A DNA stretch of 64,000 nt, taken from NCBI GenBank assembly GCA_944329425.1, contig CALVIG010000003.1, forward strand, positions 51,460 to 115,459, read 5' to 3'. Positions 34,800-62,929 of the stretch are shown in pieces (position 1 is the first letter of the stretch; every line of letters starts with the position of its first letter). Below the pieces are notes generated by a model. The model saw only the letters and a list, made by a program, of their open reading frames with translations. It was not told the origin of the DNA and searched no databases. The translations under genes and the position numbers were made by a program. The DNA comes from an uncultured Bacilli bacterium. Its GTDB lineage: Bacteria; Bacillota_I; Bacilli_A; RF39; UBA660.

Positions 34800-34810
34800 G
34801 GAGGAGAAAA

Positions 34811-41917: not shown

Positions 41918-41998
41918 GTTAAGAAACCTTTTGGGTTTCTTTTTTTGTTATCACCCAAATAGGTATTAATCATAAAATACTTTGAAGGAAGTGATAAT

Positions 41999-42055
41999 AT
42001 GGTTATAGTAGATGCTGGACATCAAAGGTGCTTTTTAACAAGGTATATAAAATAA
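41999..42055 (+). pseudogene. 5' fragment of a cwlC-type N-acetylmuramoyl-L-alanine amidase (Amidase_3) gene, interrupted after MVIVDAGH
   Basis: RBS GAAGGAAG followed by ATG. The encoded MVIVDAGH is the start of the IDAGHGGxDPGA catalytic motif. The frame runs into element DNA and stops after 18 codons. The 3' remainder is at 58005-58270. Confidence 0.6.
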
Positions 42056-42191
42056 AGAACCCGCTAGCTATAAGTCATTATACATAAAAGATAAATTAGT
42101 TGAAAAAATAGAGAAAATAGCAATTGAAAACAATACTTCATTCAATAATGTTATTATATCAATGATAGAAACATGCCTAAAACAAAAGTAA
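42051..42191 (+). pseudogene. Start-less remnant ORF with ribbon-helix-helix-like C-terminus at the left edge of the element
   Basis: Frame NKEPASYKSLYIKDKLVEKIEKIAIENNTSFNNVIISMIETCLKQK* has no usable start codon. A terminator hairpin follows at 42187-42220. Confidence 0.3.
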
Positions 42192-42428
42192 GACTCTTTA
42201 TAATTGATGTCTTACTTTTTAAATTTTAGAAATATTTATTAGTTTATCTACTAGTTTTTATAAACAGCATAAGATATTTTAAAATATATATTTTTTAAAG
42301 ATTGTTTTGTGATATTTTTATTATTTTTCTAATATAAAAATAACATTTACTTTTATATTAGAAAGATATATAATAACACCCAAAAAGGAGCAATGCGTTT
42401 AATTATAATTATATTGGTATAAAGTCTT

Positions 42429-42660
42429 AGATATTGAGTAGTACATCTAAACACTTTTACTTTTGCAGTAAATGTTTGTGGCATTGTAGTGGGTGTGCTA
42501 CTATGATTATAGAGTTTTATTTTTTTGATTTATTTTTTTATATAAATCTCGGATGCGTTTTTGTTAATAAAATCCCATCAGGGATTTTTTTTGTGCAATT
42601 TTATTTAGCACGAGCACCGCCTTTCTGTAAAAAAAAATTATTTTTACGGAAAGGAGTTTA
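42429..42660 (+). promoter_or_regulatory. Conserved leader upstream of sigma-like regulator copy A (paralogous to 54777-55011)
   Basis: About 85 nt are roughly 80% identical to copy B (AGATATTGAGTAGTACATCTAAACACTTTTACT ... GGGTGTGCTACTATG). This is followed by a terminator-like hairpin plus T-run (42570-42593), the shared CACCGCCTTTCT box and a second hairpin abutting the RBS. Confidence 0.4.
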
Positions 42661-42661
42661 A

Positions 42662-43147
42662 ATGAATATACCTAGGAGACGAAAAAGTAAGGATAATCCT
42701 TATACCTTAGGCGTTAATAATGAAGGTAAGTACTTAGTTTCATTTAAAAATGCTAATAATTATAAAGTGTGTATTGAAGTTAGTTATTTAATTTATAAAA
42801 CATTAAACGAATTTGAATTAAAAGATTTATCTCAGTTAAATGAATTTGATAGACATATAGAACATCTAGATTTAATGGAAAATGATGAAATTCTATATAA
42901 AAGAATTATAAAAAAAGAGTTATCTATTGAAGAAATAGTTAATATTAAAATTTCTAAAGAAAATTTAATTTATGCTATAAATAAACTTTCTATAAATCAA
43001 AAAACAAGAATAATGAAATACTATTTTGATGGTAAAACAGAAAGTGATATTGCTTTGGAAGAAAATGTGACACAGCAATCTGTTCATATAGGTTTAAAAC
43101 GAGCAATAAAAAAATTAAGAGAAATTTTAAAAAGTTTAGAAAAATAG
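42662..43147 (+). CDS. Sigma-70 region-4-like HTH regulator (small alternative-sigma/late-activator-like protein), copy A
   Basis: 161 aa. C-terminal MKYYFDGKTESDIALEENVTQQSVHIGLKRAIKKLREILK fits the sigma-70 region 4 HTH pattern. About 50% identical to the ORF at 55012-55491. Confidence 0.55.
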   Translation: MNIPRRRKSKDNPYTLGVNNEGKYLVSFKNANNYKVCIEVSYLIYKTLNEFELKDLSQLNEFDRHIEHLDLMENDEILYKRIIKKELSIEEIVNIKISKENLIYAINKLSINQKTRIMKYYFDGKTESDIALEENVTQQSVHIGLKRAIKKLREILKSLEK

Positions 43148-43180
43148 TCTGTTATTTTTCATTTTAGTGAGGAAATAGGT

Positions 43181-43245
43181 GAAGGGATATATATCCCTTT
43201 TGCCTATCTTTATTAATTAGGTATGATCTTTGACAACTTAATATT
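43181..43245 (+). promoter_or_regulatory. Conserved terminator hairpin plus TTGACA-containing 21-nt box downstream of sigma-like copy A
   Basis: Hairpin GAAGGGATATATATCCCTTT, then GATCTTTGACAACTTAATATT. The same arrangement, nearly identical, occurs at 55531-55611 after copy B. It lies about 80 nt upstream of the tail-collar gene. Confidence 0.4.
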
Positions 43246-43323
43246 ATTAATTTAAAAATGTCTAGTGAAATTCCAGTAGAAAAAATTTTATGATGAAGCT
43301 GTTAAAGAAAGGAGAATGATATT

Positions 43324-44466
43324 ATGAATTTAACAGAACAAACTGTAAGTGGAACCAATGAAGTTAGCTTACAAGATTCACTTAATGCTTCTTTATTGAA
43401 GTTAAAAGTGACAATGGGTGCAAATACAGTAGCACCAGAAGATACAGATTGTTTTATCTATGTAGATAAAGCGTCTAGTGCAAATCCTACGGAAGAAAAG
43501 AAAAGTTATCTTTTTGAACTTTCAGAACCATTAAGATATTGTAATGGAGTAGGAGATGAGTTATTACAAGAAATAAAAATTGTAAATAACGATGTTGTAA
43601 TGAAAACAACGGTAACAAGAAAGGTAGGAGTATCTGAAGATGGTACTTTAAGTGTTTTAGAAACACCTACAACAGAGGAGATTGATGCATATCCAGTTAC
43701 TTTATTTGAAGGAATTAATTATATTTATACTAATTATTCAAATGCGGATATTGAATTAATATATCCAAAAGATACTGATGAAAACAAAATGTTTTTAAAC
43801 AATGCCATTTATTGTAATCACAAGTTAAAAAATGATGGTGAATTTTCGCTTGATGATATTTACTTTAAAGACGCATTTACTAAAACAGAAGATAAATTAA
43901 ACCTAGAAGTAAATAATGCTTCAGTTGATTGTATTACTTCGAATAATAATAAATTTAGCTTAGATAGTGAAGGTAATTTAATTGTTAATTCAATTACTAC
44001 TGCGCAAGGGTCACAAGGCTCTTCATCTGATAATGAAACAATATGTAATTTGATATATCCAGTTGGTAGTATTTATATGTCTGTTAATAGTACTGATCCA
44101 ACAACTTTATTCGGCGGTACATGGGAACAGTTAAAAGATAGATTCCTACTTGGAGCTGGTGATTCCTATGGAAACGGAGCAACCGGTGGAGAAGCAAACC
44201 ATACATTAACTATTAATGAGATGCCAAGCCACACTCACACTCAAAATCCACATACACACAGTGTTAGAGCAAAAGGGTTTAATGGTACTTCGAACTTGAA
44301 TGGATATTATATGCTACGTAGAAATAGAAATGATGATAGCTATGATGATGTCGATCCAAATGCAGCTATGAGTGCAACAGCAACTAACCAAAATACTGGT
44401 GGAGGAGCAAGTCATAATAATATGCCACCATACTTAGTAGTATACATGTGGAAAAGGGTATCTTAA
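43324..44466 (+). CDS. Phage tail-collar (receptor-binding fibre tip) domain protein
   Basis: C-terminal PVGSIYMS...LFGGTWEQL...RFLLGAG...GGEANHTLTINEMPSHTHT...HNNMPPYLVVYMWKR is the tail-collar/MdpB-type domain. The N-terminal part is fibre-like. Confidence 0.6.
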   Translation: MNLTEQTVSGTNEVSLQDSLNASLLKLKVTMGANTVAPEDTDCFIYVDKASSANPTEEKKSYLFELSEPLRYCNGVGDELLQEIKIVNNDVVMKTTVTRKVGVSEDGTLSVLETPTTEEIDAYPVTLFEGINYIYTNYSNADIELIYPKDTDENKMFLNNAIYCNHKLKNDGEFSLDDIYFKDAFTKTEDKLNLEVNNASVDCITSNNNKFSLDSEGNLIVNSITTAQGSQGSSSDNETICNLIYPVGSIYMSVNSTDPTTLFGGTWEQLKDRFLLGAGDSYGNGATGGEANHTLTINEMPSHTHTQNPHTHSVRAKGFNGTSNLNGYYMLRRNRNDDSYDDVDPNAAMSATATNQNTGGGASHNNMPPYLVVYMWKRVS

Positions 44467-44855
44467 TGATAACCCTTCCCATTAAGGATCATTTAATTAT
44501 GCGAGCACTTAATAATTATTCTAATACTGTTTATGAACTTAATATTTTAAAAAGAAGATTAAATTTACTTGTAAATTATGAATCCGAAATTGCTTTGGAA
44601 AAAAATAGGTTAATAAATTTAATAGATAACGAACAACAGGTGATAAAGCAAATGGAAAATGATTTACAAAATTTATCTGGTATTGAAAATAAACTGTATT
44701 ATGAAATTGTTATTAATGGTACTAACGTAACAAAGGCAATAGATAAAGTAGCAACAAATGAATTTATTGATACTTCAACTTTATGGAAAAATTATTATCC
44801 TAAAGTAAAAAAAGAAATAGATAAATTATATCTACTATTATCTAAAGAAAATTAA
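44448..44855 (+). CDS. Hypothetical protein (possible fibre chaperone/accessory), translationally coupled
   Basis: Overlaps the 3' end of the previous gene. 135 aa. No recognisable family. Confidence 0.35.
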   Translation: MEKGILMITLPIKDHLIMRALNNYSNTVYELNILKRRLNLLVNYESEIALEKNRLINLIDNEQQVIKQMENDLQNLSGIENKLYYEIVINGTNVTKAIDKVATNEFIDTSTLWKNYYPKVKKEIDKLYLLLSKEN

Positions 44856-44875
44856 ATATAGAAAGGAGATTAGCA

Positions 44876-47800
44876 ATGAAAGAAATAGAGTTAATTGGAA
44901 AACGAAAAGCAAGAGAAAAACATTTCTTAAAAGAAAATGGAATAATAACAGCTAATGTCTATGATGAAGATATTCATTTTTTAAAAGATGGAAAATATGA
45001 AGAGATTGATAATACACTTATTGAGGAAAATGGCTATTTAGTAAATAAAAATAATGCGTATAAAGTTTCTTTTGCAAAGAAAAGTAAAGATGAACTAATG
45101 GAAATGAGTATAGGTAATAATTATATTAAAACAATGTTGGTTTATCAAAAAGAAGTGGATTTAAAAGAAAATATTACTCAGTCCAAACTTCACAAAAACG
45201 TATGTTATCCTAATATAATAGAAAATGTTGATTTAGAATATAATATTATGCCTGGAAAGGTAAAAGAAGCAATTATATTAAAAAATAAAAATGTTGATTT
45301 AGAAAAATTAGTTTTCATAATTGAAACAAACACAAAATTAGAATTAAAGGAAAATAAAAAAATTATTTCAACGGTAGACAATAATAATTGTTTCGAATTT
45401 GACGCACTTTATATGATAGATGCTAACTTTAAAACAAATAATAATATTAATTATAAATTAACTAAAAGAGATGATGATATATATCAACTTGAATTAATTG
45501 TTGACAAAGAATGGTTAAATAATGAAGAAACAAAATATCCAGTAATAATTGATCCAACAATAACAAATTCCGGTCAGAACAATAGTGTCTATGATACTTA
45601 TATTTATCCTGGTGATACTGGAGTTGATAGAAATAGTCAAGATATTTTAAAAGCAGGGGTTGAAAGAATTGATGGCGTTGATAGGGAAAATAGAACGTTA
45701 ATAAAATTTGATTTGCCTGTAATAGGTACCGGTAGTCAAGTAATAGGTGCCAATTTACAGTTATATGGTTATCCAAAAATACCTTCAGATAGTGAAACAG
45801 ATTTGTTGTTGGCTCATAGAATCACCACAAATTGGGATGAAAGTACTGCTACATGGGATAATATGAATGACAAATTTGATCCGTTGGTTGAAGGTTTAAT
45901 ATTTGTTGGAAGAGGATACTATGATTTTGAAAACGAAACTATTCATCCATTTAATTGTGGTGGTGATATTACTAGATTAGTGAGAAAATGGTACACAGGA
46001 ACGCCTAATTATGGTATTATGTTGAAACAAAATCTATTGAAGTATAATGCAAATATATTACCAGCATTTTATTCAAACAATAATAATTCTACTGGTATAA
46101 ATCCTAAGCCTGTATTATCTATATCATATAGAAATCAAAATGGAATAGAAAATTATATGAATTATCAGACAAAAGGTTTTTATGATGGCGAAGCATATGT
46201 CAATAACTATAATGGAAATTTGACCACAATATTTGATATTGGTTCAACAATAAGTGGAAAAATGCCAATTGGTTTAAATCTTATATATAATACAAATGAT
46301 GTTGTGTTAGAAAAAAATTATGGTTATGGATTAGGGTATAAATTAAATTTACACCAAACTATAAAAGAACAACTTATTGATTCTAAAACATATTTAGAGT
46401 ATTGTGATGAAGATGGTACTTTACATTATTTTTTAAATGAAAAAGCTATGTTTGATGAAAATGGTTATAATATCATTAATACACAAAACATTTATTATGA
46501 TGAAGATGGGTTGGATATGACTATAACAAAAAATAGTAATAGTTATGTGCTTAAAGATAAAAATGGAAATACTATGACATTTATTAAAAATGGTGATAAA
46601 GCATATTTAACTAAGATAGAAGATGTTAATGGTAATAAAAATACTATTGAATATAGTCCTGAGAATGCAATAGTAAAAATAATAGATGCTAATGATAATG
46701 AAATAAATTTAGAATATGGTGCAACTACAATAACTATAATAAGTCCAGAACAAACAGTTACTTTAAGTTATTTAAATAACCAAGTAGTCAGTATAAATAG
46801 TTTAACAGGAATAACTCAATTCGAATATAATGCAAATAATATTATATCTAAAATTATTGATATTGATGGTATGAAAACTACTTATGATTACTATGATCAA
46901 AAACCATACAAAGTAAAAAAAGTATCTGAATATGGTGCTGAAAATACTTTGGGAGAATATTTTGAGATGTTGTATGATTTTGATTCTACAACTATAGTAG
47001 ATTCAAAAGAAAACGCAAAAAATATTATATTTAATTCTCAAGGTAGTGTAGTATCAATTAGTGGTTTGAAGGATAAGGATGATATAAAAAATTCGTATGG
47101 GCTTAGCCAAATAAATGGCACATCTGGAATTACCATTAATAATGGAAACAATAATAAATTATTAAGAACAGAGATACCACTTAAATATGTTAAAAATTTA
47201 TTATCTAATACAAGTTTTGAAAAAAATGTAATTAATTTTACTAGTACAGAAGATGTTAATATGATTATAACTAATGAAACCTCGGAAACAGGTGCTAATA
47301 GTTTAAAAGCTACTAGTACAATTAATAATCAAGCATTAACACAAAGTATAGATGTAGAAAAAGGTGATTATTATACATTTAGTAGTTATATTAAAAATAC
47401 TGGTGATGTTAAATTAATTCTTAGTTACTTTGACAAGAATGGGATTATTATTCAATCTCAAAGTGAATTAATAAAGCCGAGTGATGTTTTTGAAAGATAT
47501 GATGTAACAATAAAGTATCCTGAAGATGCAACAAGTAATTTAACTTTAAAAATAATTTTAGAAGATGCTGGAACAGTATATGTTGATGATGTACAGTTGG
47601 AAACCGGTGAAGTTGCAAATAATTATAATTTATTAGAAAATTCAGATTTTTCTAATGGTTTCTCTGATTGGGAGGTTTCAGCTAGTGATAATTTAACAGG
47701 TGATTTATTATCTATAAATGATGTATTTGAAATTGTTTCTTTGCCAGACAATTTAAACGCACTTAAAATAAAAATGAATCCTGCTTATAATTATATTATG

Positions 47801-50800
47801 GAAAAAACATATAATATAAGTGGAAAAGGCGGAGATGTATTTAATCTTTCATTTTGGTATAAAAATGAAGGTGTAGATTCAGATTTATCAGAGTATTATG
47901 GAAGCAGACCATATATTATTTTTCATTATACAAATCAAGAAGATGGACATTGCATTATTCCTACACCGTTACTTAATATAAATGATCAATCATGGCAATA
48001 TGTTTCGAATGATTTTACTGCTGAAAAAGATTATAGTTCTATTACGATTAGTATTCAACATCAATATACTGCAAATGATTTTTATATTACAAATATGAGT
48101 TTATTTAAAGATATAAGAAATGTTTATTATGAGTATGATGAATTTGGAAATGTAATATTAGAAAAAAATTTAGATGATAATAGTAATAAATATAATTATG
48201 ATAAAGATAATAAATTGATTCAGATGACTAATCCAAAAGGCAAAAATTTTACTATTGAATATGATAATATTTTTAAAAATAGGACTATCAATGGTATGAC
48301 TGATATGGGGGTATCTAATCAATTAAAATATGACAATAATAATAATCCAATTATATCTAGGGTTCAAAAAAATAATATTATAGGTGATATAACAGATGGT
48401 TTATATAAAATAAGATTAAAGGGAAGCGATATATATTTAAGAAATATATCAAATGATATTAAATGTAAATTAGAAAACTGTAACCATGATATATGGAAAT
48501 TAGAAAAGATAGATGAATATGTTAAAATCCATCACTCTATTCTTACTGATAAATATTTTACTGTTCAGAATAATAATATTATTTTATCAAATGAAAATGG
48601 AGATAATTCACTATTTAAGTTGAAGAAAAATAAAAACGGAAGTTATTCTATAAAATTAAAACTAGAGGATAAATACTTAAAATATAATAATTCAGGAATA
48701 GAAATATCAACTTTGATAGATGAAGATTACAGTTTTGAATTTTATTTTGAAACTGTAGATTGTGATTTATTTATTGAAAATAAAGCGGAGTATACAGAAA
48801 ATGGTGCGTTTATAAGTCGAATAATTGATTCATTAAATCATTCTTATAATTATGAAATTGATCAGGAAAAAGGTTTGACTAAATCAGAAACAAACGAAAA
48901 AGGTATTAAAACTAATTATAATTATAATTCTAAAAAGAAACTTATTTCATCTATATGCAACGATAAAAGTGTATTTTATGAATATAATGATAAAAATTTG
49001 TTAAGTAAAGTTAAGCATGGTAAGAAAGAATATAATTTTATTTATGATGAATTTTCTAATGTTAAGACAATAAAAATGGGTAATAATATTAGGCTTATTA
49101 CATATAATTATGATACAAATGGAGATTTGATTTTATTAGATTATGGGAATGAAGGCTCTCTAAATTATGAGTATGACGAATTTTCTAGATTAAGTAAAAA
49201 AACTAAAGAAAATGATACCTATGAATATAAGTATAATGGAAGTGGAGATTTGGTAAAAATTTTATCAAATAATTACATAACTAAATATACTTATGATTTA
49301 GCTAAAAGATTGAGTAAATATAATTTTGATGATTTTATAATTAAATATAAATATGACTCAAATGAAAATATAACGAATATTAAGTATAGTTTGGGTAGCA
49401 TAAATAATGAAATAATAAATACTTTTAATGATGATGATTTGATAATTAATACGTCATTTTCAAATAAAAAAATAAATTATACCTATGATTTACTAGGTAG
49501 ATTAAAAAGTGAAAAAATAAACAATATATATGAAACAAGTTATGAATATATAGAGAATGGAAAAAATACTTCTACTCTATTGAAAAAGCTTAAAACAGGT
49601 AATAATATATATTCATACAAATATGATAAATTAAATAATTTAACGCATGTTTATTATAATGACGACTTATTAACTAAATATTATTATGATGACTATAATC
49701 AGCTTATAAAGGAAATCGATTTTGAAGATAAAAAAATTATAAAATATAAATATGATAATGTAGGTAATATGTTATACAAAAAAGTATATGCTTTGGATAC
49801 CTATGACTTTATTACCCAAGATATATATTATTACAATAATGATGATTGGCAAGATCAATTAACTTCGTTTAATAACACCGCTATTACTTATGATGAAATA
49901 GGGAATCCATTAACTATAGGTAATAATATTAATCTAAACTGGATTAATGGTAGAGAACTAGAAACTTATAATGATGGTACTAACCTAATTTCGTATAAAT
50001 ATAATTCTGAAGGTATAAGAATAAGTAAAAAGGTGAATAACACGGAAACGAAATATTATTTAGAGGATAATGATATAATATTTGAAAAGAGAGGAAATAA
50101 TGTGCTATACTATTTACGTAATGATATAGATGATTTGTTTGGATTTATGTATAATAACGATTTATATTATTATGTAAAAAATAATAAGAATGATATTGTA
50201 GGTATATTAGATAACAGTTATAATATAGTAGCTAAGTATAAATATGATTCTTGGGGAAAAGTAATTTCTATAACTGATAGTCAAGATAACGATATATCAA
50301 ATAATGTTAATAATATAGGAAATATAAATCCGTTTAGATATAGATCTTATTATTATGATTCAGAAACTAAATTATATTATTTAAATAGTAGATATTATAA
50401 TCCGGAATGGAAAAGATTTATTAATCCTGATTCTTATGCTGGACAAATTGGTGGAAATATATTACTTCACAATATATATATATATTCTTTAAATAATCCT
50501 ATTTTATATAGCGATGAAAGTGGTAATATAGTAGGATTAACATCAGTAGCTGCGGGTGTGTTATACGCTTTTGGAATTGCTGTATTTAAAGCTTCTGTGT
50601 ATGTAGCTGTTAGTGGTTTAGTTGTTGGGGGCTCTATTTATGTGGGAAAAGCCATATCCAATAATAAAAGTAAATCAAAATCAAAGACGAAAGCACAAAG
50701 TAAATCTAAAATAAAAACTGCTGTGGCTGCAAAAGCAAAAACTAGTACAAAAAAATATTCGAACAACAATAAGCCATGTACAGAAGCCTATTTTACAAAA

Positions 50801-51079
50801 GATATGAGAGATGTTGTACGTGGTGAAAGATTAACAATTGAAGAAACAATTGCAAAAGTTAATGCTAAGGGAAATGTTATGTGTGATAATTATTGGCCCG
50901 CTAAAGAAGTTGCTACTGCCATTTCTCCAAATCCAATATGTGAAATAAATAGCATTCAGCATAAAGGATATAAATATTACTATCACTTTCATCCAAATAG
51001 AGATACTTATAAGGATGTACATATATTCTTTGAAGGATTACCATTAGAATTTTTTGAAGGGAAGGGAAATTGTAGATGA
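44876..51079 (+). CDS. Rhs/YD-repeat polymorphic toxin (2067 aa): DNRLRE-like domain, CBM-like and ricin-B-like lectin modules, YD repeats, RHS core, variable C-terminal toxin domain
   Basis: RBS GAAAGGAGA. Dozens of YD-type repeats (e.g. YKYDSNENITNIKY, YTYDLLGRL). RHS core end motif FRYRSYYYDSETKLYYLNSRYYNPEWKRFINPD...NIYIYSLNNPILYSDESGN. N-terminal region with DNRLRE-like segment (DRENRTLIKFDL). No signal peptide. Confidence 0.85.
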   Translation: MKEIELIGKRKAREKHFLKENGIITANVYDEDIHFLKDGKYEEIDNTLIEENGYLVNKNNAYKVSFAKKSKDELMEMSIGNNYIKTMLVYQKEVDLKENITQSKLHKNVCYPNIIENVDLEYNIMPGKVKEAIILKNKNVDLEKLVFIIETNTKLELKENKKIISTVDNNNCFEFDALYMIDANFKTNNNINYKLTKRDDDIYQLELIVDKEWLNNEETKYPVIIDPTITNSGQNNSVYDTYIYPGDTGVDRNSQDILKAGVERIDGVDRENRTLIKFDLPVIGTGSQVIGANLQLYGYPKIPSDSETDLLLAHRITTNWDESTATWDNMNDKFDPLVEGLIFVGRGYYDFENETIHPFNCGGDITRLVRKWYTGTPNYGIMLKQNLLKYNANILPAFYSNNNNSTGINPKPVLSISYRNQNGIENYMNYQTKGFYDGEAYVNNYNGNLTTIFDIGSTISGKMPIGLNLIYNTNDVVLEKNYGYGLGYKLNLHQTIKEQLIDSKTYLEYCDEDGTLHYFLNEKAMFDENGYNIINTQNIYYDEDGLDMTITKNSNSYVLKDKNGNTMTFIKNGDKAYLTKIEDVNGNKNTIEYSPENAIVKIIDANDNEINLEYGATTITIISPEQTVTLSYLNNQVVSINSLTGITQFEYNANNIISKIIDIDGMKTTYDYYDQKPYKVKKVSEYGAENTLGEYFEMLYDFDSTTIVDSKENAKNIIFNSQGSVVSISGLKDKDDIKNSYGLSQINGTSGITINNGNNNKLLRTEIPLKYVKNLLSNTSFEKNVINFTSTEDVNMIITNETSETGANSLKATSTINNQALTQSIDVEKGDYYTFSSYIKNTGDVKLILSYFDKNGIIIQSQSELIKPSDVFERYDVTIKYPEDATSNLTLKIILEDAGTVYVDDVQLETGEVANNYNLLENSDFSNGFSDWEVSASDNLTGDLLSINDVFEIVSLPDNLNALKIKMNPAYNYIMEKTYNISGKGGDVFNLSFWYKNEGVDSDLSEYYGSRPYIIFHYTNQEDGHCIIPTPLLNINDQSWQYVSNDFTAEKDYSSITISIQHQYTANDFYITNMSLFKDIRNVYYEYDEFGNVILEKNLDDNSNKYNYDKDNKLIQMTNPKGKNFTIEYDNIFKNRTINGMTDMGVSNQLKYDNNNNPIISRVQKNNIIGDITDGLYKIRLKGSDIYLRNISNDIKCKLENCNHDIWKLEKIDEYVKIHHSILTDKYFTVQNNNIILSNENGDNSLFKLKKNKNGSYSIKLKLEDKYLKYNNSGIEISTLIDEDYSFEFYFETVDCDLFIENKAEYTENGAFISRIIDSLNHSYNYEIDQEKGLTKSETNEKGIKTNYNYNSKKKLISSICNDKSVFYEYNDKNLLSKVKHGKKEYNFIYDEFSNVKTIKMGNNIRLITYNYDTNGDLILLDYGNEGSLNYEYDEFSRLSKKTKENDTYEYKYNGSGDLVKILSNNYITKYTYDLAKRLSKYNFDDFIIKYKYDSNENITNIKYSLGSINNEIINTFNDDDLIINTSFSNKKINYTYDLLGRLKSEKINNIYETSYEYIENGKNTSTLLKKLKTGNNIYSYKYDKLNNLTHVYYNDDLLTKYYYDDYNQLIKEIDFEDKKIIKYKYDNVGNMLYKKVYALDTYDFITQDIYYYNNDDWQDQLTSFNNTAITYDEIGNPLTIGNNINLNWINGRELETYNDGTNLISYKYNSEGIRISKKVNNTETKYYLEDNDIIFEKRGNNVLYYLRNDIDDLFGFMYNNDLYYYVKNNKNDIVGILDNSYNIVAKYKYDSWGKVISITDSQDNDISNNVNNIGNINPFRYRSYYYDSETKLYYLNSRYYNPEWKRFINPDSYAGQIGGNILLHNIYIYSLNNPILYSDESGNIVGLTSVAAGVLYAFGIAVFKASVYVAVSGLVVGGSIYVGKAISNNKSKSKSKTKAQSKSKIKTAVAAKAKTSTKKYSNNNKPCTEAYFTKDMRDVVRGERLTIEETIAKVNAKGNVMCDNYWPAKEVATAISPNPICEINSIQHKGYKYYYHFHPNRDTYKDVHIFFEGLPLEFFEGKGNCR

Positions 51080-51804
51080 TAATAAGAGATAAAGTGACTG
51101 GTGATTTATATAAAAATTTAATGAATTATATTATTTCAAAAAGTGACGTTTTATCAGTATCAGTAAATCTTATTTATAATAAGAAAGTTACGGATAAATT
51201 TATGAAAATTATTACATATAATAATGAGTATGATATTAATAATATTCTAAATGATGTTCCTAAAAAACTAATAGAGGAAATTTCTGAGGAAAACAAGAAT
51301 AATACTTTAATTTTTGATGAAGAATATATAAATAATGAAAAAAGATATTTAATAAAATATATTCAAAATTTTTCAGAAGATGATAGGGTATCTCTCATAT
51401 ATAAAAGAAGAAAAACTTATATAAAAAATATGATTTATTGGCTAGTTTATGAATATAAAACAACTAATTGGTTACGTAAATTTAAAACTAGTATTATTTA
51501 TAAAAAGCGTAAAAATTCATCGTATACTACTTATTATCTCAATCTGACGAAGGATTTAATAGATGATATCCTTAGCAGAAATTCATTTGATGATTGGAAT
51601 TTTCCATTATCTGTTGAAGATATTGCATTTTTTAAGGATAAACAATGTTTATTATGTTCAGAAACTCATGAAAATATGTGGGATTTATATTGTAAAGATC
51701 AAAATGAATATAAGTATTTTAAATCTATTGGTATTAAATTTAATGATTTTAAATATAAATCAGAAGGAAAAAAAGGATTACCTTACAATAATTATTATAT
51801 TTAA
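51076..51804 (+). CDS. Putative cognate immunity protein of the Rhs C-terminal toxin
   Basis: Start overlaps the Rhs stop (ATGA). Cytoplasmic 242-aa protein with no homology recognised. The position is typical for Rhs immunity genes. Confidence 0.45.
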   Translation: MIIRDKVTGDLYKNLMNYIISKSDVLSVSVNLIYNKKVTDKFMKIITYNNEYDINNILNDVPKKLIEEISEENKNNTLIFDEEYINNEKRYLIKYIQNFSEDDRVSLIYKRRKTYIKNMIYWLVYEYKTTNWLRKFKTSIIYKKRKNSSYTTYYLNLTKDLIDDILSRNSFDDWNFPLSVEDIAFFKDKQCLLCSETHENMWDLYCKDQNEYKYFKSIGIKFNDFKYKSEGKKGLPYNNYYI

Positions 51805-51908
51805 TTAGATTTAGGTATTATTAATTTGAACTTTAACTCTAAAATTTGCAAAAGGCATTTTGATCGAGTTATCATTATGTCTTTTAATATTTTTCAAAAG
51901 GAAAAATT

Positions 51909-52208
51909 ATGATAAATTTTATAATAAATTATTGGATTGAGATATTATTGACGTCTATTACATCAGGAATTATATATATTTTTAAACAATATATGGGTTT
52001 AAAAAACGGAATGAAATCTCTTTTAAGAAATGAAATAATAAGAATATATGATAATCAAGAAAAATTAGGATATTGTCCTAGTTATATGAAAGAGAACATT
52101 AAAGAAATGTATGAAAACTACCATAAATTAGGTGGTAATGGAATGGTTACAAAAATGACTAATAAATTATATGAATTACCAAATGTAAAGGAGGATGATA
52201 AAGTATGA
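51909..52208 (+). CDS. BhlA/UviB-like holin-family protein (N-terminal transmembrane helix plus coiled region)
   Basis: 99 aa. Single N-terminal transmembrane segment. First gene of a three-gene overlapping cassette that ends in a lysin. Confidence 0.35.
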   Translation: MINFIINYWIEILLTSITSGIIYIFKQYMGLKNGMKSLLRNEIIRIYDNQEKLGYCPSYMKENIKEMYENYHKLGGNGMVTKMTNKLYELPNVKEDDKV

Positions 52209-52432
52209 AAGAAAAATTGATTTTATCTATTATTAATTTACTTAAAGTAAAATCAATAATAACGCTACTTACATTTGTAGCGTTCTTTTATTTATCTATT
52301 TCAGAAAAAATAGGTAGCGATAATTTTATGCTGATTATAGGAATGATTGCGACTTATTTCTTTAATAAAGATAATTCTGAAAAATTAAAAAATAAATCTA
52401 TGGAAGTGGTAAAAGATGAGCAAGATAACTAA
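52205..52432 (+). CDS. Small two-transmembrane holin-like protein
   Basis: 75 aa. Two hydrophobic helices and a charged C-terminus (KDEQDN). It overlaps both neighbours (ATGA-type coupling). Confidence 0.45.
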   Translation: MKEKLILSIINLLKVKSIITLLTFVAFFYLSISEKIGSDNFMLIIGMIATYFFNKDNSEKLKNKSMEVVKDEQDN

Positions 52433-53153
52433 CTTAATATTTAAAAATGCTAATCATTATGTAACATCTGGCTTTGGTAATAGAAAAGTAATGAATACCA
52501 AAGGAGGCTATACAAGTTCTTTTCATAATGGAACAGATTATGGGACAAATAATGTTAAATTACCACAATATGCTATTGAAAATGGAACTGTATTAAGTTG
52601 TGGTACGGATTCTTTAGGAGGAAAATTTGTTTGGGTTAAATATCCTAGAATAAATGTTAAAATGCTTCATTATCATTTATCTAGTGTTAATTGTAAAACT
52701 AATCAAATAGTATCTAAGGGAACACTTTTAGGATATACTGGTATGAGTGGTAAGGCAACAGGTATTCATTTGCATTTGTCTATTGTTGATCTATCTAATG
52801 GAGAGTTTTTGAATCCTGAGACGTATTCTTATACTGAACAAAGTGAAACATCTGTGCCTGTAATTAATAATTCATTTTTTGGTAATAAATCATATTTTAA
52901 GCGTGGTGATTCATGTGACAATATAGGTAAAGTATGTTATTTTTTTGCAGACTATTTTTATGGATATTTTTGTAAAACTAAAGAGGAGGCTCATAAGTTA
53001 TTAGATGGTAATCTATTTGGACCATATCTTGAGAAATGGGTAAAAGAGTTTCAAGAAAGAGCTAAAGCAGAGGGAAGGTATTATGATAACATTGATGGCT
53101 ACATTGGACCTAAAACTTTAAAAACTTTAGAAAGCTATGGGTTTATTTATTGA
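52416..53153 (+). CDS. M23-family peptidoglycan endopeptidase with C-terminal PG_binding_1 domain (endolysin-like)
   Basis: HNGTDYG ... GMSGKATGIHLHLSI (HxxxD/HxH zinc motifs of LytM/M23). C-terminal ...YYDNIDGYIGPKTLKTLESYGF is the peptidoglycan-binding repeat. No signal peptide. Confidence 0.75.
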   Translation: MSKITNLIFKNANHYVTSGFGNRKVMNTKGGYTSSFHNGTDYGTNNVKLPQYAIENGTVLSCGTDSLGGKFVWVKYPRINVKMLHYHLSSVNCKTNQIVSKGTLLGYTGMSGKATGIHLHLSIVDLSNGEFLNPETYSYTEQSETSVPVINNSFFGNKSYFKRGDSCDNIGKVCYFFADYFYGYFCKTKEEAHKLLDGNLFGPYLEKWVKEFQERAKAEGRYYDNIDGYIGPKTLKTLESYGFIY

Positions 53154-53284
53154 TTAATAAAGGGGTACAAATTATTATTTTGTATCCTTTTAAAATATTC
53201 ATATTTACTAAAATAATTAAATATGATAATATAAACTTATAAAATGTGTTGATTAGCAGTAAATAATATTTATTAGGAGAAATC

Positions 53285-54058
53285 ATGACAAAGAGATTAA
53301 AACTATTTATAATAATTACTGTATTATTAATTATAATAATATTTATTTTCAGATTATTTCCTTTTGGATATAATCAATATAAAATTAGCTTGGATTTAAG
53401 TAAAATTACTTTGCCTAAATTTTCATATGATATTAAACAGGAACAAAAAGGTATAATAACTTTTAAATCACATAGAAGTAAATTTATAATTCAAGATGAA
53501 ATAAATGATATGTTTGAATCTTATGATAAATATATTTGTAATAACAAAGTGTATTATTATGATAAAAATCATAATATAACATTTATGGATTATGAAATCT
53601 CAAATAGATTTTTTACTAATAATATTAAATTAATATATCATAGTGGTAAATTTAGTGATAATGAATGTGCAAAAGTATTTGATTATAAACAAATGGATTA
53701 CAGAATTATCCCGGTTAATAGCACAGGTCATTGTTATATTAAAGAAGATAAGTTTGAATATAGAGATGAAAATAATGAATTACATAATGTGTATTATGAA
53801 TGTTTTGGTAATTTAGCATTTAAAAATGGAATGAATAAAATGGAATATATTGATAGAGTTTTATTTTTTAGATGGATTTCTATGAAGGACATAATTAATT
53901 ATTTAAATTATAAAACAAAAGATAAAACTTTTATGAAAAAAATAATAGATAAAAAACATACGTTATATTATAATAATGATTTTTATTTGTTGAAGTGTAA
54001 TAATAAAAATATATATATAGGTGAAAAGTATGATGAATTTAAAAGTTATTGTAATTAA
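53285..54058 (+). CDS. Hypothetical protein with N-terminal transmembrane anchor
   Basis: ORF with RBS AGGAGA. Extremely AT-rich. No family recognised. Confidence 0.35.
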   Translation: MTKRLKLFIIITVLLIIIIFIFRLFPFGYNQYKISLDLSKITLPKFSYDIKQEQKGIITFKSHRSKFIIQDEINDMFESYDKYICNNKVYYYDKNHNITFMDYEISNRFFTNNIKLIYHSGKFSDNECAKVFDYKQMDYRIIPVNSTGHCYIKEDKFEYRDENNELHNVYYECFGNLAFKNGMNKMEYIDRVLFFRWISMKDIINYLNYKTKDKTFMKKIIDKKHTLYYNNDFYLLKCNNKNIYIGEKYDEFKSYCN

Positions 54059-54412
54059 AAATAAATTTGATATAAAATAATCAAATTTATTTTTCTATGC
54101 ACCTATAACAAATTTCAGAAATAGAAAAGTTATATCTTTTTGAAAGTAAGTAAAGTCTTTCTAATTAAATAATGACTTTACCATACTCTATTCCACTTAA
54201 CATACTTTTTTGAATATTTAGTATTATTGCTAATTTTTTTAACTTAGATTTTAAGTTTTTCTTATTCTTAAAATATTTTTAGGAATGATTTTTAAATTCA
54301 ACTCTGTAATATTATAAATTCTTTTAGAATCATTTTTAATAAATTAACAACAGAAGAGAGAAAAATTATATATTGGATTTATTTGGACAATAAATGAAAG
54401 AAGGAAAACAAA

Positions 54413-54613
54413 ATGAGAAAAGACTCTTTAAATAGTGTGGCATCAGCAGTAAAAGAGTTCAAAAAATATATAAAAGAGAATGAAAATAATATTGATAAAT
54501 CGAAAAAAATTATATTAAGGCAGGCTCTAAAAGCAGCGCGCTCTATTATAAGCTCTAATAGAACATATTTTAATAGCCAAGAGTTAAGAGAATTATTTAA
54601 TGATAATGATTAA
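54413..54613 (+). CDS. Hypothetical small protein
   Basis: 66-aa ORF with RBS GAAGGAAAA. Confidence 0.3.
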   Translation: MRKDSLNSVASAVKEFKKYIKENENNIDKSKKIILRQALKAARSIISSNRTYFNSQELRELFNDND

Positions 54614-54776
54614 AAGTAAAATTATATTTCATTTTTTAAAAACATTAAAATAGTAAAGTTTTAAATCATGTTTTTATTAGTTTTATATTATAAAAATCTC
54701 ATTTACTTTTCTGATGTAAAAGTATATAATAGCACTTAAAAAAAAGCAGTGCTTATTATAAAGTATAAGCGATTTT

Positions 54777-55011
54777 AGATATTTGAGTAGTACATCTATA
54801 AACTTTTACTAGTGCAGTAGTTTAGTAGCATTGCTATTAGGGTGTGCTACTATGTATGAAAAGATATTTAATAGTCAATATTTTATTTTTAATGCCGTAT
54901 GGGGCTTGTTCGTTCAAGTCCCGTGCGGCATTTTTTTTATACCTGTTTTTATTATGTTTAAAATTCGTTCACCGCCTTTTCTATTGAATAACTCAATAGA
55001 AAGGAAGGTAA
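54777..55011 (+). promoter_or_regulatory. Conserved leader upstream of sigma-like regulator copy B (paralogous to 42429-42660)
   Basis: Same conserved 5' block, internal hairpin plus T-run (54894-54938), CACCGCCTTTCT box and RBS-proximal hairpin CTTTCTATTGAATAACTCAATAGAAAG. Confidence 0.4.
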
Positions 55012-55491
55012 ATGAATAATCCAAAAAGACGCAAAAGTAAAGATAATCCATATACTTTAATTTATAATTCACAAGATGATAAATATATTATTTCTTTTAA
55101 TGATTCTAGTAACCATAAAATTATTTTTGAAATAGATCGTTCTTTATATATGTTATTTAATGAATTTGAATTAGAAGACTTATCAGAGTTAAATGAATTT
55201 GATAGACATATAGAGCATCTTAATATAATGGAGAGTGATGAGATTCTATATAAAAGAACCCTGAAAAAGAGTTTATTAGTAGATGACATTGTTGATAAAA
55301 AATTAGAAATGGAAACATTGAGAGAAGCTATAAATGAACTTCCAATGACGCAGAAAAGGAGATTAAAAAAGTACTATTTTGAAAATAAAACGCTGGAAGA
55401 TATAGCAAAAGATGAACATTGCTCAAAAGTGGCTGTTAAATATAGCATTGATTGTGCAATTAGTAATTTAAGAAAAAAATTAAAAAGTTAA
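55012..55491 (+). CDS. Sigma-70 region-4-like HTH regulator, copy B
   Basis: 159 aa. Paralogue of 42662-43147 (shared KSKDNPYTL, LNEFDRHIEHL, KYYF...K..S blocks). Confidence 0.55.
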   Translation: MNNPKRRKSKDNPYTLIYNSQDDKYIISFNDSSNHKIIFEIDRSLYMLFNEFELEDLSELNEFDRHIEHLNIMESDEILYKRTLKKSLLVDDIVDKKLEMETLREAINELPMTQKRRLKKYYFENKTLEDIAKDEHCSKVAVKYSIDCAISNLRKKLKS

Positions 55492-55530
55492 ATTTTTAGG
55501 CTTAACTTTTAGGCTAGAAGTGAGGAAATA

Positions 55531-55611
55531 GATGGAAGGGTAAAATATCCTTTCCATCTGTTTTTGATTTTAATAACAAAACACAGAAGTTGATCTTTGA
55601 CAACTTAATAT
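55531..55611 (+). promoter_or_regulatory. Conserved terminator hairpin plus TTGACA box downstream of sigma-like copy B
   Basis: GATGGAAGGGTAAAATATCCTTTCCATC hairpin, then GATCTTTGACAACTTAATATT (identical 21-mer to copy A). Confidence 0.4.
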
Positions 55612-55880
55612 TTATTCATCAGATACGTTCTTATTGTTCTGGAGCACGTTAACAAGTACGCTTGTCGGTAAATACTTGGTTATAAAACTAGATGGCAACT
55701 AGTATTGCGAAGATAAATAATAAGGTTAAAGATACTTCTGTTCAGCCATAGACTCAATCATTGGGAGCAGTCCGGAGTGATCCTCGGGAGAGTGAAAATC
55801 TCATGGAATTAGTTAGCCACTAATCGTCTGGTGAATGTTAAAAGTACTTGTTTATATTAAAATGGAAGGGAATTTATTAA

Positions 55881-57984: not shown

Positions 57985-58004
57985 TTACCTTGCTAACACG
58001 TATC

Positions 58005-58270: not shown

Positions 58271-58309
58271 CAATTAAAGCCTAAATATAGAAAGAAATGA
58301 GGAAATGTT

Positions 58310-62836: not shown

Positions 62837-62929
62837 TTTAATATTCAAATAGAAAAATATATAAAAGCGCTAGTACAGGCTTAATCTATTTAGGTTTTGT
62901 ATTGCGCTTTTTTAGTAGTAGGAGGAATT

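What the first reader, a model, noticed from the sequence alone, without database searches (positions are those of the whole stretch)
41999..42055. Left junction (attL): amidase start codon region followed by core CTGGACAT, with predicted perfect repair of the catalytic IDAGHGG motif
Joining host-left ATGGTTATAGTAGATG plus core CTGGACAT to host-right GGAGGATCTGATCCAGGCGCA gives MVIVDAGHGGSDPGA. This is the textbook N-terminal zinc-ligand motif of CwlC/CwlD-type amidases. The disruption sits exactly inside the codon pair Gly-His, so the intact gene can only be regenerated by precise site-specific excision. That is diagnostic for a recombinase-controlled intervening element rather than random insertion decay.
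Basis: seen in the sequence. Interest (0 to 1): 0.8.

Follow-up and report, generated by a model that had tools for sequence, protein, structure and literature searches.

The report
Spore amidase gene split by mobile elements
The flagged 57 bases are the left junction of a 16-kb prophage-like island that its own serine recombinase inserted into the catalytic histidine codon of a probable sporulation cell-wall amidase gene, but a second mobile element splits the same gene 230 bases downstream, so removing the first alone cannot restore it.

Summary
ATG 41999 opens MVIVDAGH, the 8-bp core CTGGACAT sits at 42015-42022 and again at 58005-58012, and joining the flanks gives MVIVDAGHGGSDPGA.

A near-identical strain (L005, 98-99.5% flank identity) carries exactly the predicted empty site. 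The intervening 15,990 bp is a prophage-like island. Its large serine recombinase (LSR) gene ends 20 bp before the right-hand copy of the core. Dyad symmetry and nine other occupied loci place the crossover at CA, the first two bases of the His8 codon.

Relatives of this LSR (at least 49% identity) almost always sit directly upstream of 'HGG..' of Amidase_3 genes. These are either this Amidase_3-LysM gene or CwlD-like spore amidases.

The target has a conserved sigma-K-type promoter (31 of 35 orthologous loci against 0.6% background), and the window encodes SpoIIR.

The 'perfect repair' claim overstates. The rejoined ORF covers only Pfam Amidase_3 positions 1-80 of 174, because a second, unrelated LSR element (TnpV onward) interrupts it at 58246/58247 and runs off the window.

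Best reading: a new member of the skin/SPbeta class of sporulation gene-intervening elements, here doubled in one gene. Excision during sporulation is inferred, not shown.

The parts
41953..41979 (+). Sigma-K-type promoter of the amidase gene (AC-N16-CATAAAATA), about 20 nt upstream of the RBS/ATG
   Evidence: The motif AC-N15-18-CATAnnnTA lies within 90 nt upstream of the start in 31 of 35 orthologous loci, against 0.6% of random 90-nt windows. A single match in the window is not significant on its own: 10 were seen and 11 expected.
41999..42022 (+). Amidase 'exon 1': codons 1-8 (MVIVDAGH), ending in the left copy of the core
   Evidence: It is contiguous with exon 2 in L005.
41980..42061 (+). 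attL of element 1. Core CTGGACAT is at 42015-42022; the inferred crossover dinucleotide CA is at 42020-42021.
   Evidence: Dyad symmetry is maximal at CA: 13 of 25 for reconstructed attB and 17 of 25 for attP, against at most 9 and 11 at other centres. attR junctions in nine other loci share only CA(T/C)GG with attB.
42023..58012 (+). Element 1: a 15,990-bp prophage-like island, 24.7% GC against 29.3% for the upstream host DNA
   Evidence: It is absent from the near-identical strain L005. The same element is found in L057, L026 and L100-L105.
42312..43147 (+). Leader region plus a 161-aa protein with sigma-70 region 4 (copy 1 of a duplicated module)
   Evidence: Pfam Sigma70_r4_2, 5e-7. Paralogous to 54668-55491.
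43324..44466 (+). Phage tail-fibre/baseplate-like protein
   Evidence: Pfam Gp10_C, 1e-24. PHROG tail protein families.
44876..51079 (+). 2067-aa RHS/YD-repeat protein with a variable C-terminus
   Evidence: NCBIfam DNRLRE, Rhs_assc_core and YD_repeat. Only 52% identical over residues 1226-1903 in the otherwise 98%-identical element of L057.
51076..51804 (+). ORF overlapping the RHS stop codon; putative immunity protein
   Evidence: Assigned by position only. No family hit and no counterpart in L057.
51909..53153 (+). Phage-type lysis cassette: two small membrane proteins and an M23 peptidase
   Evidence: phrog_4105, phrog_13256 and endolysin PHROGs. Pfam Peptidase_M23.
54668..55491 (+). Leader plus sigma-70 region 4 protein, copy 2 (conserved next to the LSR in related elements)
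56148..56293 (+). 48-aa ORF directly upstream of the LSR gene; candidate recombination directionality factor or cofactor
   Evidence: It is conserved (YNV...FN(E/Q)KLL(K/R)(I/V)I) upstream of the LSR across the clade, including the 53%-identity group. It hits no known family. The function is inferred.
56374..57984 (+). Large serine recombinase of element 1 (536 aa from the ATG; an upstream TTG at 56347 is also possible)
   Evidence: Pfam Resolvase, Recombinase, Zn_ribbon_recom and DUF4368. The YTRLSDED serine motif is present. The exact sequence occurs on 18 contigs, always in this context.
57970..58051 (+). attR of element 1. Core is at 58005-58012; CA is at 58010-58011.
58013..58246 (+). Amidase 'exon 2': codons 9-86 (GGSDPG...NHLNAGGGEG). 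It has no start codon of its own.
   Evidence: Pfam Amidase_3 profile positions 1-80 of 174 for the joined sequence.
58232..58270 (+). Left junction of element 2 (site 2). The host sequence ends at GGT 58244-58246. The element-encoded tail QSVTINV* follows.
   Evidence: Compared with uninterrupted orthologues, which read GGNGGNGA(T/C)GGNGCNGAA. The same tail family (xSVTN..) occurs in many homologues.
58247..64000 (+). Element 2 (partial): TnpV, a 99-aa ORF, a fused EcoRI-type and C5 DNA methyltransferase, and further ORFs. It runs off the window.
   Evidence: Pfam TnpV, EcoRI_methylase and DNA_methylase. L100 is 100% identical over 46374-64000 and continues through DUF6119 and HTH_36 to a second 527-aa LSR.

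Best explanation
41999-42055 is attL of a 15,990-bp prophage-like island (element 1).

SHOWN:
- The island's own large serine recombinase (LSR) gene (56374-57984) ends 20 bp before the right-hand copy of the core.
- The island is absent from a near-identical strain, which carries the exact rejoined sequence.
- LSRs of this clade are found, in many species, directly upstream of the 'HGG' codons of Amidase_3 genes.

INFERRED FROM SEQUENCE:
- The LSR recombined a roughly 50-bp attP with an imperfectly palindromic attB that encodes VDAGHGG. The crossover was at the CA of the His8 codon (the first zinc ligand, by homology).
- The reverse attL x attR reaction would restore codons 1-86 exactly.
- The target gene is a signal-peptide-less Amidase_3 plus 5 LysM wall hydrolase driven by a conserved sigma-K-type promoter, in a host that retains spoIIR. 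It is therefore a late mother-cell gene, functionally analogous to CwlC.

INFERRED BY ANALOGY, NOT SHOWN:
- As with skin, SPbeta, vfbin, gin and yin, the element is probably carried silently in the germ line and excised in the terminally differentiated mother cell.
- The LSR gene is preceded by a conserved TATAAT box. Directionality would probably come from the conserved 48-aa protein encoded just upstream (56148-56293).
- A second, unrelated LSR element sits at codon 86. The functional gene therefore needs two independent precise excisions.
For: - Junction, ORF repair and Amidase_3 match.
- Natural empty site in L005 with 98-99.5% identical flanks.
- LSR domains. The LSR is intact, and the identical protein occurs on 18 contigs, always in this context.
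- Crossover at CA.
- Clade-level site specificity. In genome contigs, relatives at 51-97% identity (L020, L026, L027, L043, L044) sit immediately upstream of the amidase remainder. Of the 43 metagenome loci, relatives at 49% identity or more with readable downstream sequence are followed within about 60 nt by HGG.. of Amidase_3 genes, with one exception (L070).
- Some of those targets are CwlD-like. TIGR02883 is the best hit at 161-185 bits.
- Sigma-K-type promoter conserved in 31 of 35 loci against 0.6% background.
- SpoIIR in the window, E=4e-40.
- Full-length orthologues are Amidase_3 plus 5 LysM with no signal peptide.
- Interrupted copies show no decay. Start codon, promoter and reading frame are intact, and median dN/dS is 0.10 against 0.09 for uninterrupted copies.
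- About two thirds of species-representative loci are interrupted at site 1, site 2 or both.
- A fully contained doubly interrupted copy (L074) rejoins in silico to canonical VDAGHGGDD and NAGGGEGAEV.
- The small ORF is conserved next to the LSR.
- The architecture matches skin, where spoIVCA usually lies immediately upstream of the 3' sigK fragment: bioRxiv 10.1101/2022.02.25.481979.
- Every tested LSR element in a mother-cell gene excises during sporulation: PMC4191935, PMC5595907, PMC10747680.
Against: - No excision product was seen. The attP junction has zero hits in viral and metagenome contigs. The exact rejoined 93-aa product is not in the protein collection. The empty site comes from another strain, so it shows absence, not excision.
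- Sporulation of this uncultured lineage is not demonstrated. Related orders (RFN20, RF39) mix predicted sporulators and non-sporulators (PMC10868615).
- The promoter assignment rests on a consensus match plus conservation only.
- CwlC-type amidases are dispensable for spore formation in B. subtilis (my knowledge), so a permanently broken gene could be tolerated.
- The C-terminal third of the gene and attR of element 2 are not in the window. Contigs identical to the window break about 175 nt after the second LSR.
- The sigma-E/K-like -10 (CATAcATA) upstream of the 48-aa ORF is weak in 25% GC DNA.
Confidence: 0.5

Rival explanations
1. This is an ordinary site-specific mobile element with no developmental role. 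The LSR clade uses the DxGHGG-coding DNA only because it is a highly conserved, near-palindromic landing pad. Insertion knocks out a dispensable hydrolase gene. Excision, if it happens, serves only the element's own transfer.
For: - Both conserved motifs of the gene (DAGHGG and NAGGGxG) are hot spots. Site 2 is used by at least five unrelated element classes at slightly different positions. This looks like opportunistic use of conserved sequence.
- Integrative elements with serine integrases show a higher rate of domain disruption, which may reflect off-target promiscuity or unrecognised regulated cases (PMC7192596).
- No excision product was found.
- The equal dN/dS is also expected if insertions are recent relative to species divergence, where dS is about 1.
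Against: - The targets found are restricted to two kinds of sporulation-type amidase, CwlD-like and the sigma-K-promoter LysM amidase.
- About two thirds of species representatives carry an interruption, yet none shows a frameshift, a stop, or a lost promoter or start in the fragments.
- No transfer functions (relaxase, conjugation or packaging genes) were found in element 1 among the ORFs scanned.
- The element class matches the six experimentally proven cases.
Confidence: 0.37
2. This is a fixed, immobile prophage remnant. The element can no longer excise, the amidase is a permanently dead gene in this strain, and the tidy junction is just the scar of a past integration.
For: - Element 1 lacks head, packaging and replication genes among the ORFs scanned.
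- The gene is broken twice.
- No attP or attB product was found for this strain.
Against: - The LSR ORF is full length with all domains and the serine motif.
- The att arms keep their dyad symmetry.
- A presence/absence polymorphism exists between strains with 98-99.5% identical flanks.
- Copies in other samples at 91-100% identity have identical junctions.
- The exon fragments show no decay.
Confidence: 0.1
3. The 8-bp repeat is a chance match, or the contig is a chimeric misassembly.
For: CTGGACAT twice in 64 kb is not statistically unusual. The expectation is 0.62 copies, and 13 of 100 shuffles have at least 2.
Against: - The same attR junction was assembled independently in six places shown (18 contigs read) from different samples, and in L057 and L026. 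The window's own attL was not seen in another assembly; comparable attL stubs occur in related elements.
- There is an exact empty site in L005.
- The ORF is restored exactly and matches 120 homologues.
- The LSR lies adjacent to the junction.
Confidence: 0.02

Closest known systems
skin element in sigK (B. subtilis SpoIVCA; C. difficile CD1231/CD1234)
   Same: - A defective prophage-like island with an LSR, inserted inside the coding sequence of a mother-cell sporulation gene.
- The LSR gene lies at the end of the element, immediately upstream of the 3' gene fragment.
- A short direct repeat sits at the junctions.
- Elements in different species share little beyond the recombinase.
   Different: - The target is a wall hydrolase gene, not the sigma factor, so it is not expected to gate the developmental programme.
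- The LSR has no close characterised relative: it is about 30% identical to annotated TndX and below 38% to any phage record over at least 70% of its length. It was not compared with SpoIVCA directly.
- Excision has not been shown.
- The gene carries two elements.
SPbeta in spsM (SprA integrase plus SprB RDF)
   Same: - The LSR uses an imperfectly symmetric attB inside a sigma-K-controlled gene.
- The proposed logic is the same: a constitutively expressed integrase plus a small partner protein that supplies directionality under mother-cell control (PMC4191935, PMC5499854).
- Here there is a conserved TATAAT before the LSR gene and a conserved 48-aa ORF before it.
   Different: - SPbeta is an active 134-kb phage. 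Element 1 is a 16-kb remnant.
- The 48-aa ORF has no detectable similarity to any known family. Its role is a guess.
gin in gerE, vfbin in spoVFB, vrin in spoVR, yin in yabG
   Same: These are LSR-borne intervening elements of 10-30 kb in late mother-cell genes. Their cargo includes restriction-modification or phage genes (PMC5595907, PMC10747680). Element 2 here carries methyltransferases, and its relatives carry type III R-M genes.
   Different: - The target gene is new. No amidase case was found in seven literature searches.
- The host is an uncultured gut Bacilli lineage.
- Two hot spots lie in one gene.
Tn4451/Tn5397-type elements (TnpX/TndX)
   Same: - An LSR with a C-terminal DUF4368 (28.6 bits).
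- Element 2 begins with a TnpV gene, as in Tn4451.
- About 30% identity to annotated TndX over 94% of its length.
   Different: - The crossover is CA, not the GA dinucleotide of TnpX/TndX (my knowledge of those systems).
- Target specificity is strict.
- No mobilisation or resistance genes were seen.
Heterocyst-specific excision elements of cyanobacteria (nifD, fdxN/XisF, hupL)
   Same: - Genes needed only in a terminally differentiated cell are interrupted and rejoined by element-encoded recombinases.
- XisF is among the two best NCBIfam matches of the LSR (121 bits, far below its cut-off).
   Different: The phylum, the cell type and the mix of recombinase families all differ.
B. subtilis CwlC (mother-cell lysis amidase)
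   Same: - An N-terminal Amidase_3 domain that begins at residue 2 with no signal peptide (MV.I.D.GHGGSDPGA).
- A sigma-K-type promoter. cwlC is a late GerE/sigma-K gene responsible for mother-cell lysis (PMC517825).
   Different: - The C-terminal wall-binding module is 5 LysM repeats, not the SPOR-type repeats of CwlC (my knowledge).
- Orthology was not tested, and the function is inferred.

Membership tests
Sporulation gene-intervening element (skin / SPbeta / vfbin / gin / yin class) | The element lies inside the coding sequence and inactivates the gene | tested here: met
   The stub stops after 18 codons. Exon 2 has no start codon. The Pfam domain is split.
Sporulation gene-intervening element (skin / SPbeta / vfbin / gin / yin class) | The element encodes the site-specific recombinase, next to an att site | tested here: met
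   The LSR gene at 56374-57984 ends 20 bp before the right-hand copy of the core.
Sporulation gene-intervening element (skin / SPbeta / vfbin / gin / yin class) | Precise attL x attR recombination restores the intact reading frame | tested here: inconclusive
   Junction 1 is restored exactly in silico and matches a natural empty site. The gene as a whole is not restored, because site 2 is also occupied and exon 3 is outside the window. A fully contained double case, L074, rejoins correctly at both sites.
Sporulation gene-intervening element (skin / SPbeta / vfbin / gin / yin class) | The target is a sporulation gene expressed in the mother cell | tested here: inconclusive
   A conserved sigma-K-type promoter in 31 of 35 loci. 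SpoIIR is in the window. Sister targets are CwlD-like. There are no expression data, and the organism is uncultured.
Sporulation gene-intervening element (skin / SPbeta / vfbin / gin / yin class) | Excision occurs during sporulation, in the mother cell | not testable with these tools
   Searches of assembled contigs for attP found nothing. Reads or cultures are needed.
Large serine recombinase (serine integrase) | An N-terminal resolvase catalytic domain with the nucleophilic Ser, plus a recombinase domain and a zinc ribbon | tested here: met
   PF00239 1e-24, PF07508 1e-25 and PF13408 4e-10, all above their cut-offs. The YTRLSDED motif is present.
Large serine recombinase (serine integrase) | Roughly 40-50 bp att sites with imperfect dyad symmetry around a 2-bp crossover | tested here: met
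   The symmetry maximum is at CA for both reconstructed attB (13 of 25) and attP (17 of 25). The same CA is shared by nine other attR junctions. Cleavage itself was not assayed.
Amidase_3 N-acetylmuramoyl-L-alanine amidase | A full Amidase_3 domain, including the C-terminal catalytic part | tested here: not met
   The window's rejoined ORF covers profile positions 1-80 of 174 only. The remainder is not in the window. Uninterrupted orthologues cover 1-173.
CwlD (TIGR02883 equivalog) | A score above the curated equivalog cut-off | tested here: not met
   The full-length orthologue from L006 scores 70 bits against a cut-off of 221.55. It also lacks the N-terminal membrane anchor.
Tn4451/Tn5397 family (TnpX/TndX) | GA crossover dinucleotide and a close TnpX/TndX-type recombinase | tested here: not met
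   The crossover is inferred to be CA. Identity to annotated TndX is about 30%.

The most novel reading that the evidence does not exclude
A late mother-cell wall-hydrolase gene exists in the germ line as three pieces and is reassembled during sporulation by two unrelated serine recombinases acting at two catalytic-motif codons, a two-key lock.

This would be one instance of a wider, undescribed habit. A whole LSR clade in gut Firmicutes would be specialised on the first zinc-ligand His codon of sporulation amidase genes, both cwlD-type and cwlC-like. That would make spore-wall amidases a major class of developmentally rearranged genes alongside sigK.

A bolder variant, at about 10%: the island's own holin-like and M23 lysis cassette substitutes for the amidase it interrupts.
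Probability: 0.35. Interest if true: 0.75.

Novelty: new member of a known kind. Interest (0 to 1): 0.58.

Why it matters
Developmentally excised elements in sporulation genes are known for six genes: sigK, spsM, spoVFB, spoVR, gerE and yabG. These are mostly in cultured Bacillus and Clostridium.

This finding would add a wall amidase as a target. It would show the phenomenon in an uncultured, genome-reduced gut Bacilli lineage whose ability to sporulate is itself debated.

The sites are used very often. About two thirds of species-representative genomes are interrupted, some twice.

It also defines a serine-integrase clade with a predictable, conserved attB (the DxGHGG codons) and a conserved 48-aa partner. 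That makes a ready-made candidate integrase/RDF pair for testing.

Practically, routine annotation will call this amidase a pseudogene or a 92-aa fragment in most of these genomes. This biases gene-content-based predictions of sporulation and wall metabolism.

Tried and rejected
- **Exact attB in genome contigs:** 0 hits. It was found later in metagenome contig L005, reached through the protein route.
- **attP junction (26 and 23 nt) in viral and metagenome contigs:** 0 hits. So there is no assembled circular form.
- **Exact rejoined 93-aa product in the 15-billion-protein collection:** absent.
- **GA as the crossover, as for TnpX/TndX:** considered because the core reads CTG-GA-CAT. Rejected: symmetry about GA is 7 of 25 (attB) and 11 of 25 (attP), against 13 and 17 for CA. 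Other elements in the clade do not share GA with attB.
- **Sigma-K motif as a single-sequence argument:** rejected. The motif is not enriched in the window, with 10 seen and about 11 expected. Only its conservation across orthologues counts.
- **The amidase as a prophage endolysin:** rejected. Chromosomal synteny is conserved (rplM-rpsI-...-htrA-amidase) across species, and so is the promoter.
- **Rfam on the duplicated leader upstream of the sigma-like genes:** no family at gathering threshold. Only a pemK motif elsewhere in the element.
- **Pfam, NCBIfam or PHROG hits:** none for the 48-aa ORF (Pfam only), the RHS C-terminal 259 aa (Pfam only) or the putative immunity ORF (Pfam and PHROGs).
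- **Search for the amidase C-terminus in the window (tblastn):** absent. Contigs identical to the window (L100, L102) end about 150-175 nt after the second LSR without reaching it.
- **dN/dS comparison of interrupted against uninterrupted copies:** no difference, 0.10 against 0.09. The test is weak, because dS is about 1 between species.
Full report
**1. The observation**

The bases are as described. An RBS (gaaggaagtg) precedes ATG 41999. The reading frame gives MVIVDAGH, whose last eight bases are CTGGACAT (42015-42022). The sequence then becomes unrelated and stops after 18 codons. The same octamer occurs once more, at 58005-58012, and is followed by the unique GGAGGATCTGATCCAGGCGCA.

Two copies of an octamer in 64 kb is not remarkable by itself. 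The expectation is 0.62, and 13 of 100 shuffles reach two. The joined sequence, however, is an open frame, MVIVDAGHGGSDPGASNGD.... It matches Pfam Amidase_3 (E=3e-19). All 120 best database homologues listed are Amidase_3, and all 16 that I read carry this N-terminus uninterrupted.

The clinching result is contig L005, from a near-identical strain. It aligns to window 33800-42022 at 98.4-99.5% identity and then continues directly at 58002.

**2. What lies between the two copies**

The intervening 15,990 bp has 24.7% GC, against 29.3% upstream. It encodes, all on the + strand:
- a leader plus a 161-aa sigma-70 region-4 protein
- a phage tail-fibre-like protein
- a 2067-aa RHS/YD-repeat protein, followed by an overlapping ORF
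- two small phage-family membrane proteins and an M23 peptidase
- a second, 53%-identical copy of the leader plus sigma-like module
- a pemK RNA motif
- a 48-aa ORF
- a large serine recombinase (LSR) whose stop codon lies 20 bp before the right-hand copy of the core

The LSR has the resolvase, recombinase, zinc-ribbon and DUF4368 domains and the YxRxS serine motif. The identical protein is found on 18 public contigs, always in this same context. One of them, L100, is 100% identical to window 46374-64000.

**3. Where the strands cross**

I reconstructed attB (host-left plus host-right) and attP (element-right plus element-left). Both show their best dyad symmetry about the CA at 42020-42021 / 58010-58011. 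The scores are 13 of 25 for attB and 17 of 25 for attP, against at most 9 and 11 for any neighbouring centre.

Independently, nine other genomes have an element at this site. Their element-derived arms (..cctgca..ccaaga..gcttcc..gttgca) share nothing with attB except the CA(T/C)GG that begins the His-Gly codons.

The crossover is therefore most likely the first two bases of the His8 codon. By homology to solved Amidase_3 structures (alignment to Cwp6), His8 is the first zinc ligand. I had considered GA, the dinucleotide used by TnpX/TndX. These data do not support it.

**4. The repair is only partial**

The rejoined ORF stops after 93 residues and covers Amidase_3 profile positions 1-80 of 174. 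Uninterrupted orthologues are about 465 aa, with a full Amidase_3 domain plus five LysM repeats and no signal peptide.

In the window the host sequence ends at GGT 58244-58246 (..NHLNAGGGEG). It is followed by an element-encoded tail, QSVTINV*, and then a TnpV gene, a fused EcoRI-type/C5 methyltransferase and more. In the identical contig L100 this second element continues for about 9 kb to its own 527-aa LSR. The amidase C-terminus is not in the window. It is also not reached by the identical contigs, which break about 175 nt after the second LSR.

So the gene is in at least three pieces. Removing element 1 alone cannot make an enzyme.

**5. Both sites are hot spots**

I examined 51 species-representative loci, from uncultured gut 'Bacilli', 'Tenericutes' and 'Clostridium sp. 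CAG:594'-type MAGs. By approximate hand count:
- 15 have an intact gene
- 17 are interrupted only at site 2
- 6 are interrupted only at site 1
- 3 are interrupted at both

Most of the 120 best protein homologues are 85-110-aa fragments. The sixteen that I read are cut at site 2 with recurring tails (xCVTNV, SCGKLTFF, and others) or lie at a contig end. Site 2 is used by at least five unrelated element classes, at slightly different positions within GCN-GGN-GGN-GGN-GAN.

L074 is a fully contained double case. It runs: stub, 8.9-kb element with LSR, 240-bp middle exon, 9-kb element with a different LSR, then the C-terminal exon. Both joins give canonical sequence in silico.

**6. The recombinase clade is dedicated to this codon**

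In genome contigs, LSRs 51-97% identical to the window's sit immediately upstream of the amidase remainder. Among the 43 related metagenome loci, those at least 49% identical with readable downstream sequence are, with one exception (L070), followed within about 60 nt by CA(T/C)GGNGG, that is 'HGG'. Relatives at 46% identity or below mostly are not, though L088 at 46% is.

The targets fall into two groups:
- this Amidase_3-LysM gene
- 180-aa amidases whose best NCBIfam match by far is the spore-cortex enzyme CwlD (TIGR02883, 161-185 bits; below the 221-bit cut-off, but the queries lack the N-terminus)

This meets the operational criterion of Mageeney et al. for 'regulated gene integrity': a tight integrase clade repeatedly disrupting the same domain at the same position (PMC7192596).

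A 48-aa ORF (YNV...FN(E/Q)KLL(K/R)(I/V)I) is conserved directly upstream of the LSR throughout the clade. The LSR gene itself is preceded by a conserved TATAAT. The small ORF is preceded by a CATA-type -10-like box. That is only weak evidence in such AT-rich DNA.

**7. Is the target a sporulation gene?**

Three lines say probably.

(a) The 90 nt upstream of the start contain AC-N15-18-CATAnnnTA, the sigma-K consensus (my knowledge of the B. subtilis consensus; compare PMC517825). This holds in 31 of 35 orthologous loci, including distant ones whose upstream regions are otherwise unalignable. The background rate is 0.6% of random windows. A single match would be meaningless, since the motif is not enriched in the window.

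(b) The window encodes an intact SpoIIR (E=4e-40). The related uncultured orders contain both predicted sporulators and non-sporulators (PMC10868615).

(c) A cytoplasmic Amidase_3 under a late mother-cell promoter is what CwlC is in B. subtilis, where it lyses the mother cell (PMC517825).

In addition, interrupted copies show no decay. Promoter, start and frame are intact, and median dN/dS is 0.10 against 0.09 for uninterrupted copies. That test is weak, because dS between species is about 1.

**8. Mechanism proposed**

*Shown:* a precise, LSR-associated insertion that is polymorphic between near-identical strains.

*Inferred from sequence:* attP x attB recombination at CA, with reversibility that restores codons 1-86.

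*Inferred by analogy* with skin, SPbeta, vfbin, gin and yin (PMC4191935, PMC5499854, PMC5595907, PMC10747680, PMC5025042): the element is kept in the forespore/germ line and excised in the mother cell. Directionality would be supplied by the small conserved partner protein. Element 2 would be excised independently by its own LSR, so that the amidase is made only late in the mother cell.

I put this at about 0.5. The main rival, at about 0.37, is that these are ordinary site-specific elements exploiting two conserved near-palindromic motifs in a dispensable gene. A fixed remnant is at about 0.1, and an artefact at about 0.02.

**9. Comparison with what is known, and novelty**

The kind of element, an LSR-borne intervening element in a mother-cell gene, is well established. 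The architecture matches skin, where the recombinase gene lies immediately upstream of the 3' fragment.

Three things appear to be new:
- the target, since no amidase case turned up in seven literature searches
- the host lineage
- the very high occupancy, with two independent hot spots and doubly split genes

The LSR is only about 30% identical to TndX and has no close characterised relative. I file it as a new member of a known kind.

**10.

The junction, the motif and the predicted attB are right. 'Perfect repair' and 'diagnostic' overstate, because of the second interruption and because precise insertion alone does not show regulation.

Noticed in passing
window 58232-58270 and 58247-64000: A second, unrelated LSR element (TnpV, a 99-aa ORF, a fused EcoRI-type N6-adenine and C5-cytosine DNA methyltransferase, and more) interrupts the same amidase gene at codon 86. 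This site is a hot spot used by at least five element classes in other genomes.
   Followed up: yes
window 35246-36684 (- strand ORFs 35285-36097 and 36133-36642): An IS3-family insertion sequence (rve/HTH_21 and HTH_Tnp_1) lies between rpsI and the Abi_2 gene. It is absent from the otherwise 98-99.5% identical contig L005.
   Followed up: partly
window 42312-43200 and 54668-55553: A duplicated roughly 0.9-kb module, 70-89% identical at the nucleotide level. It comprises about 350 nt of conserved non-coding leader, with a terminator-like hairpin at 42569-42588, followed by a 160-aa protein carrying only sigma-70 region 4 (53% aa identity). There is no Rfam family for the leader. The module is conserved next to the LSR in related elements.
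   Followed up: partly
window 55726-55806 (+): An Rfam pemK RNA motif (57 bits against a gathering score of 34.8) inside element 1, upstream of a 66-aa ORF (55881-56081) of unknown function.
   Followed up: no
window 44876-53153: An RHS/YD-repeat protein of 2067 aa with no signal peptide and a variable C-terminus (52% identity in the otherwise 98%-identical element of L057). It is followed by an overlapping putative immunity ORF, two holin-like proteins and an M23 peptidase, and preceded by a sigma-like regulator. The arrangement recalls toxin loci released through holin and endolysin (PaLoc-like).
   Followed up: partly
window 56148-56293: A 48-aa ORF with a strong RBS, conserved immediately upstream of the LSR in the whole recombinase clade. 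No known family. Candidate recombination directionality factor.
   Followed up: partly
window 979-1509: An intact SpoIIR gene (Pfam Spore_II_R, 4e-40) in a 28% GC genome of a lineage often labelled Tenericutes or Mollicutes. This is evidence that the host retains sporulation genes.
   Followed up: partly
L058, L066-L069, L071, L088, L095 (just downstream of the recombinase gene): Relatives of the element-1 recombinase in other gut Firmicutes sit in the same His codon of CwlD-like spore-cortex amidase genes.
   Followed up: partly
window 42068-42192 (+): A start-less reading frame, ..KDKLVEKIEKIAIENNTSFNNVIISMIETCLKQK*, just inside the left end of element 1, followed by a terminator-like hairpin. 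It may be a gene remnant or use a non-canonical start.
   Followed up: no
L100 20618-20793 and L102 12537-12689: Two independent assemblies identical to the window both end 150-175 nt after the second recombinase gene without reaching the amidase 3' part. This suggests a repeat or structural heterogeneity there.
   Followed up: no
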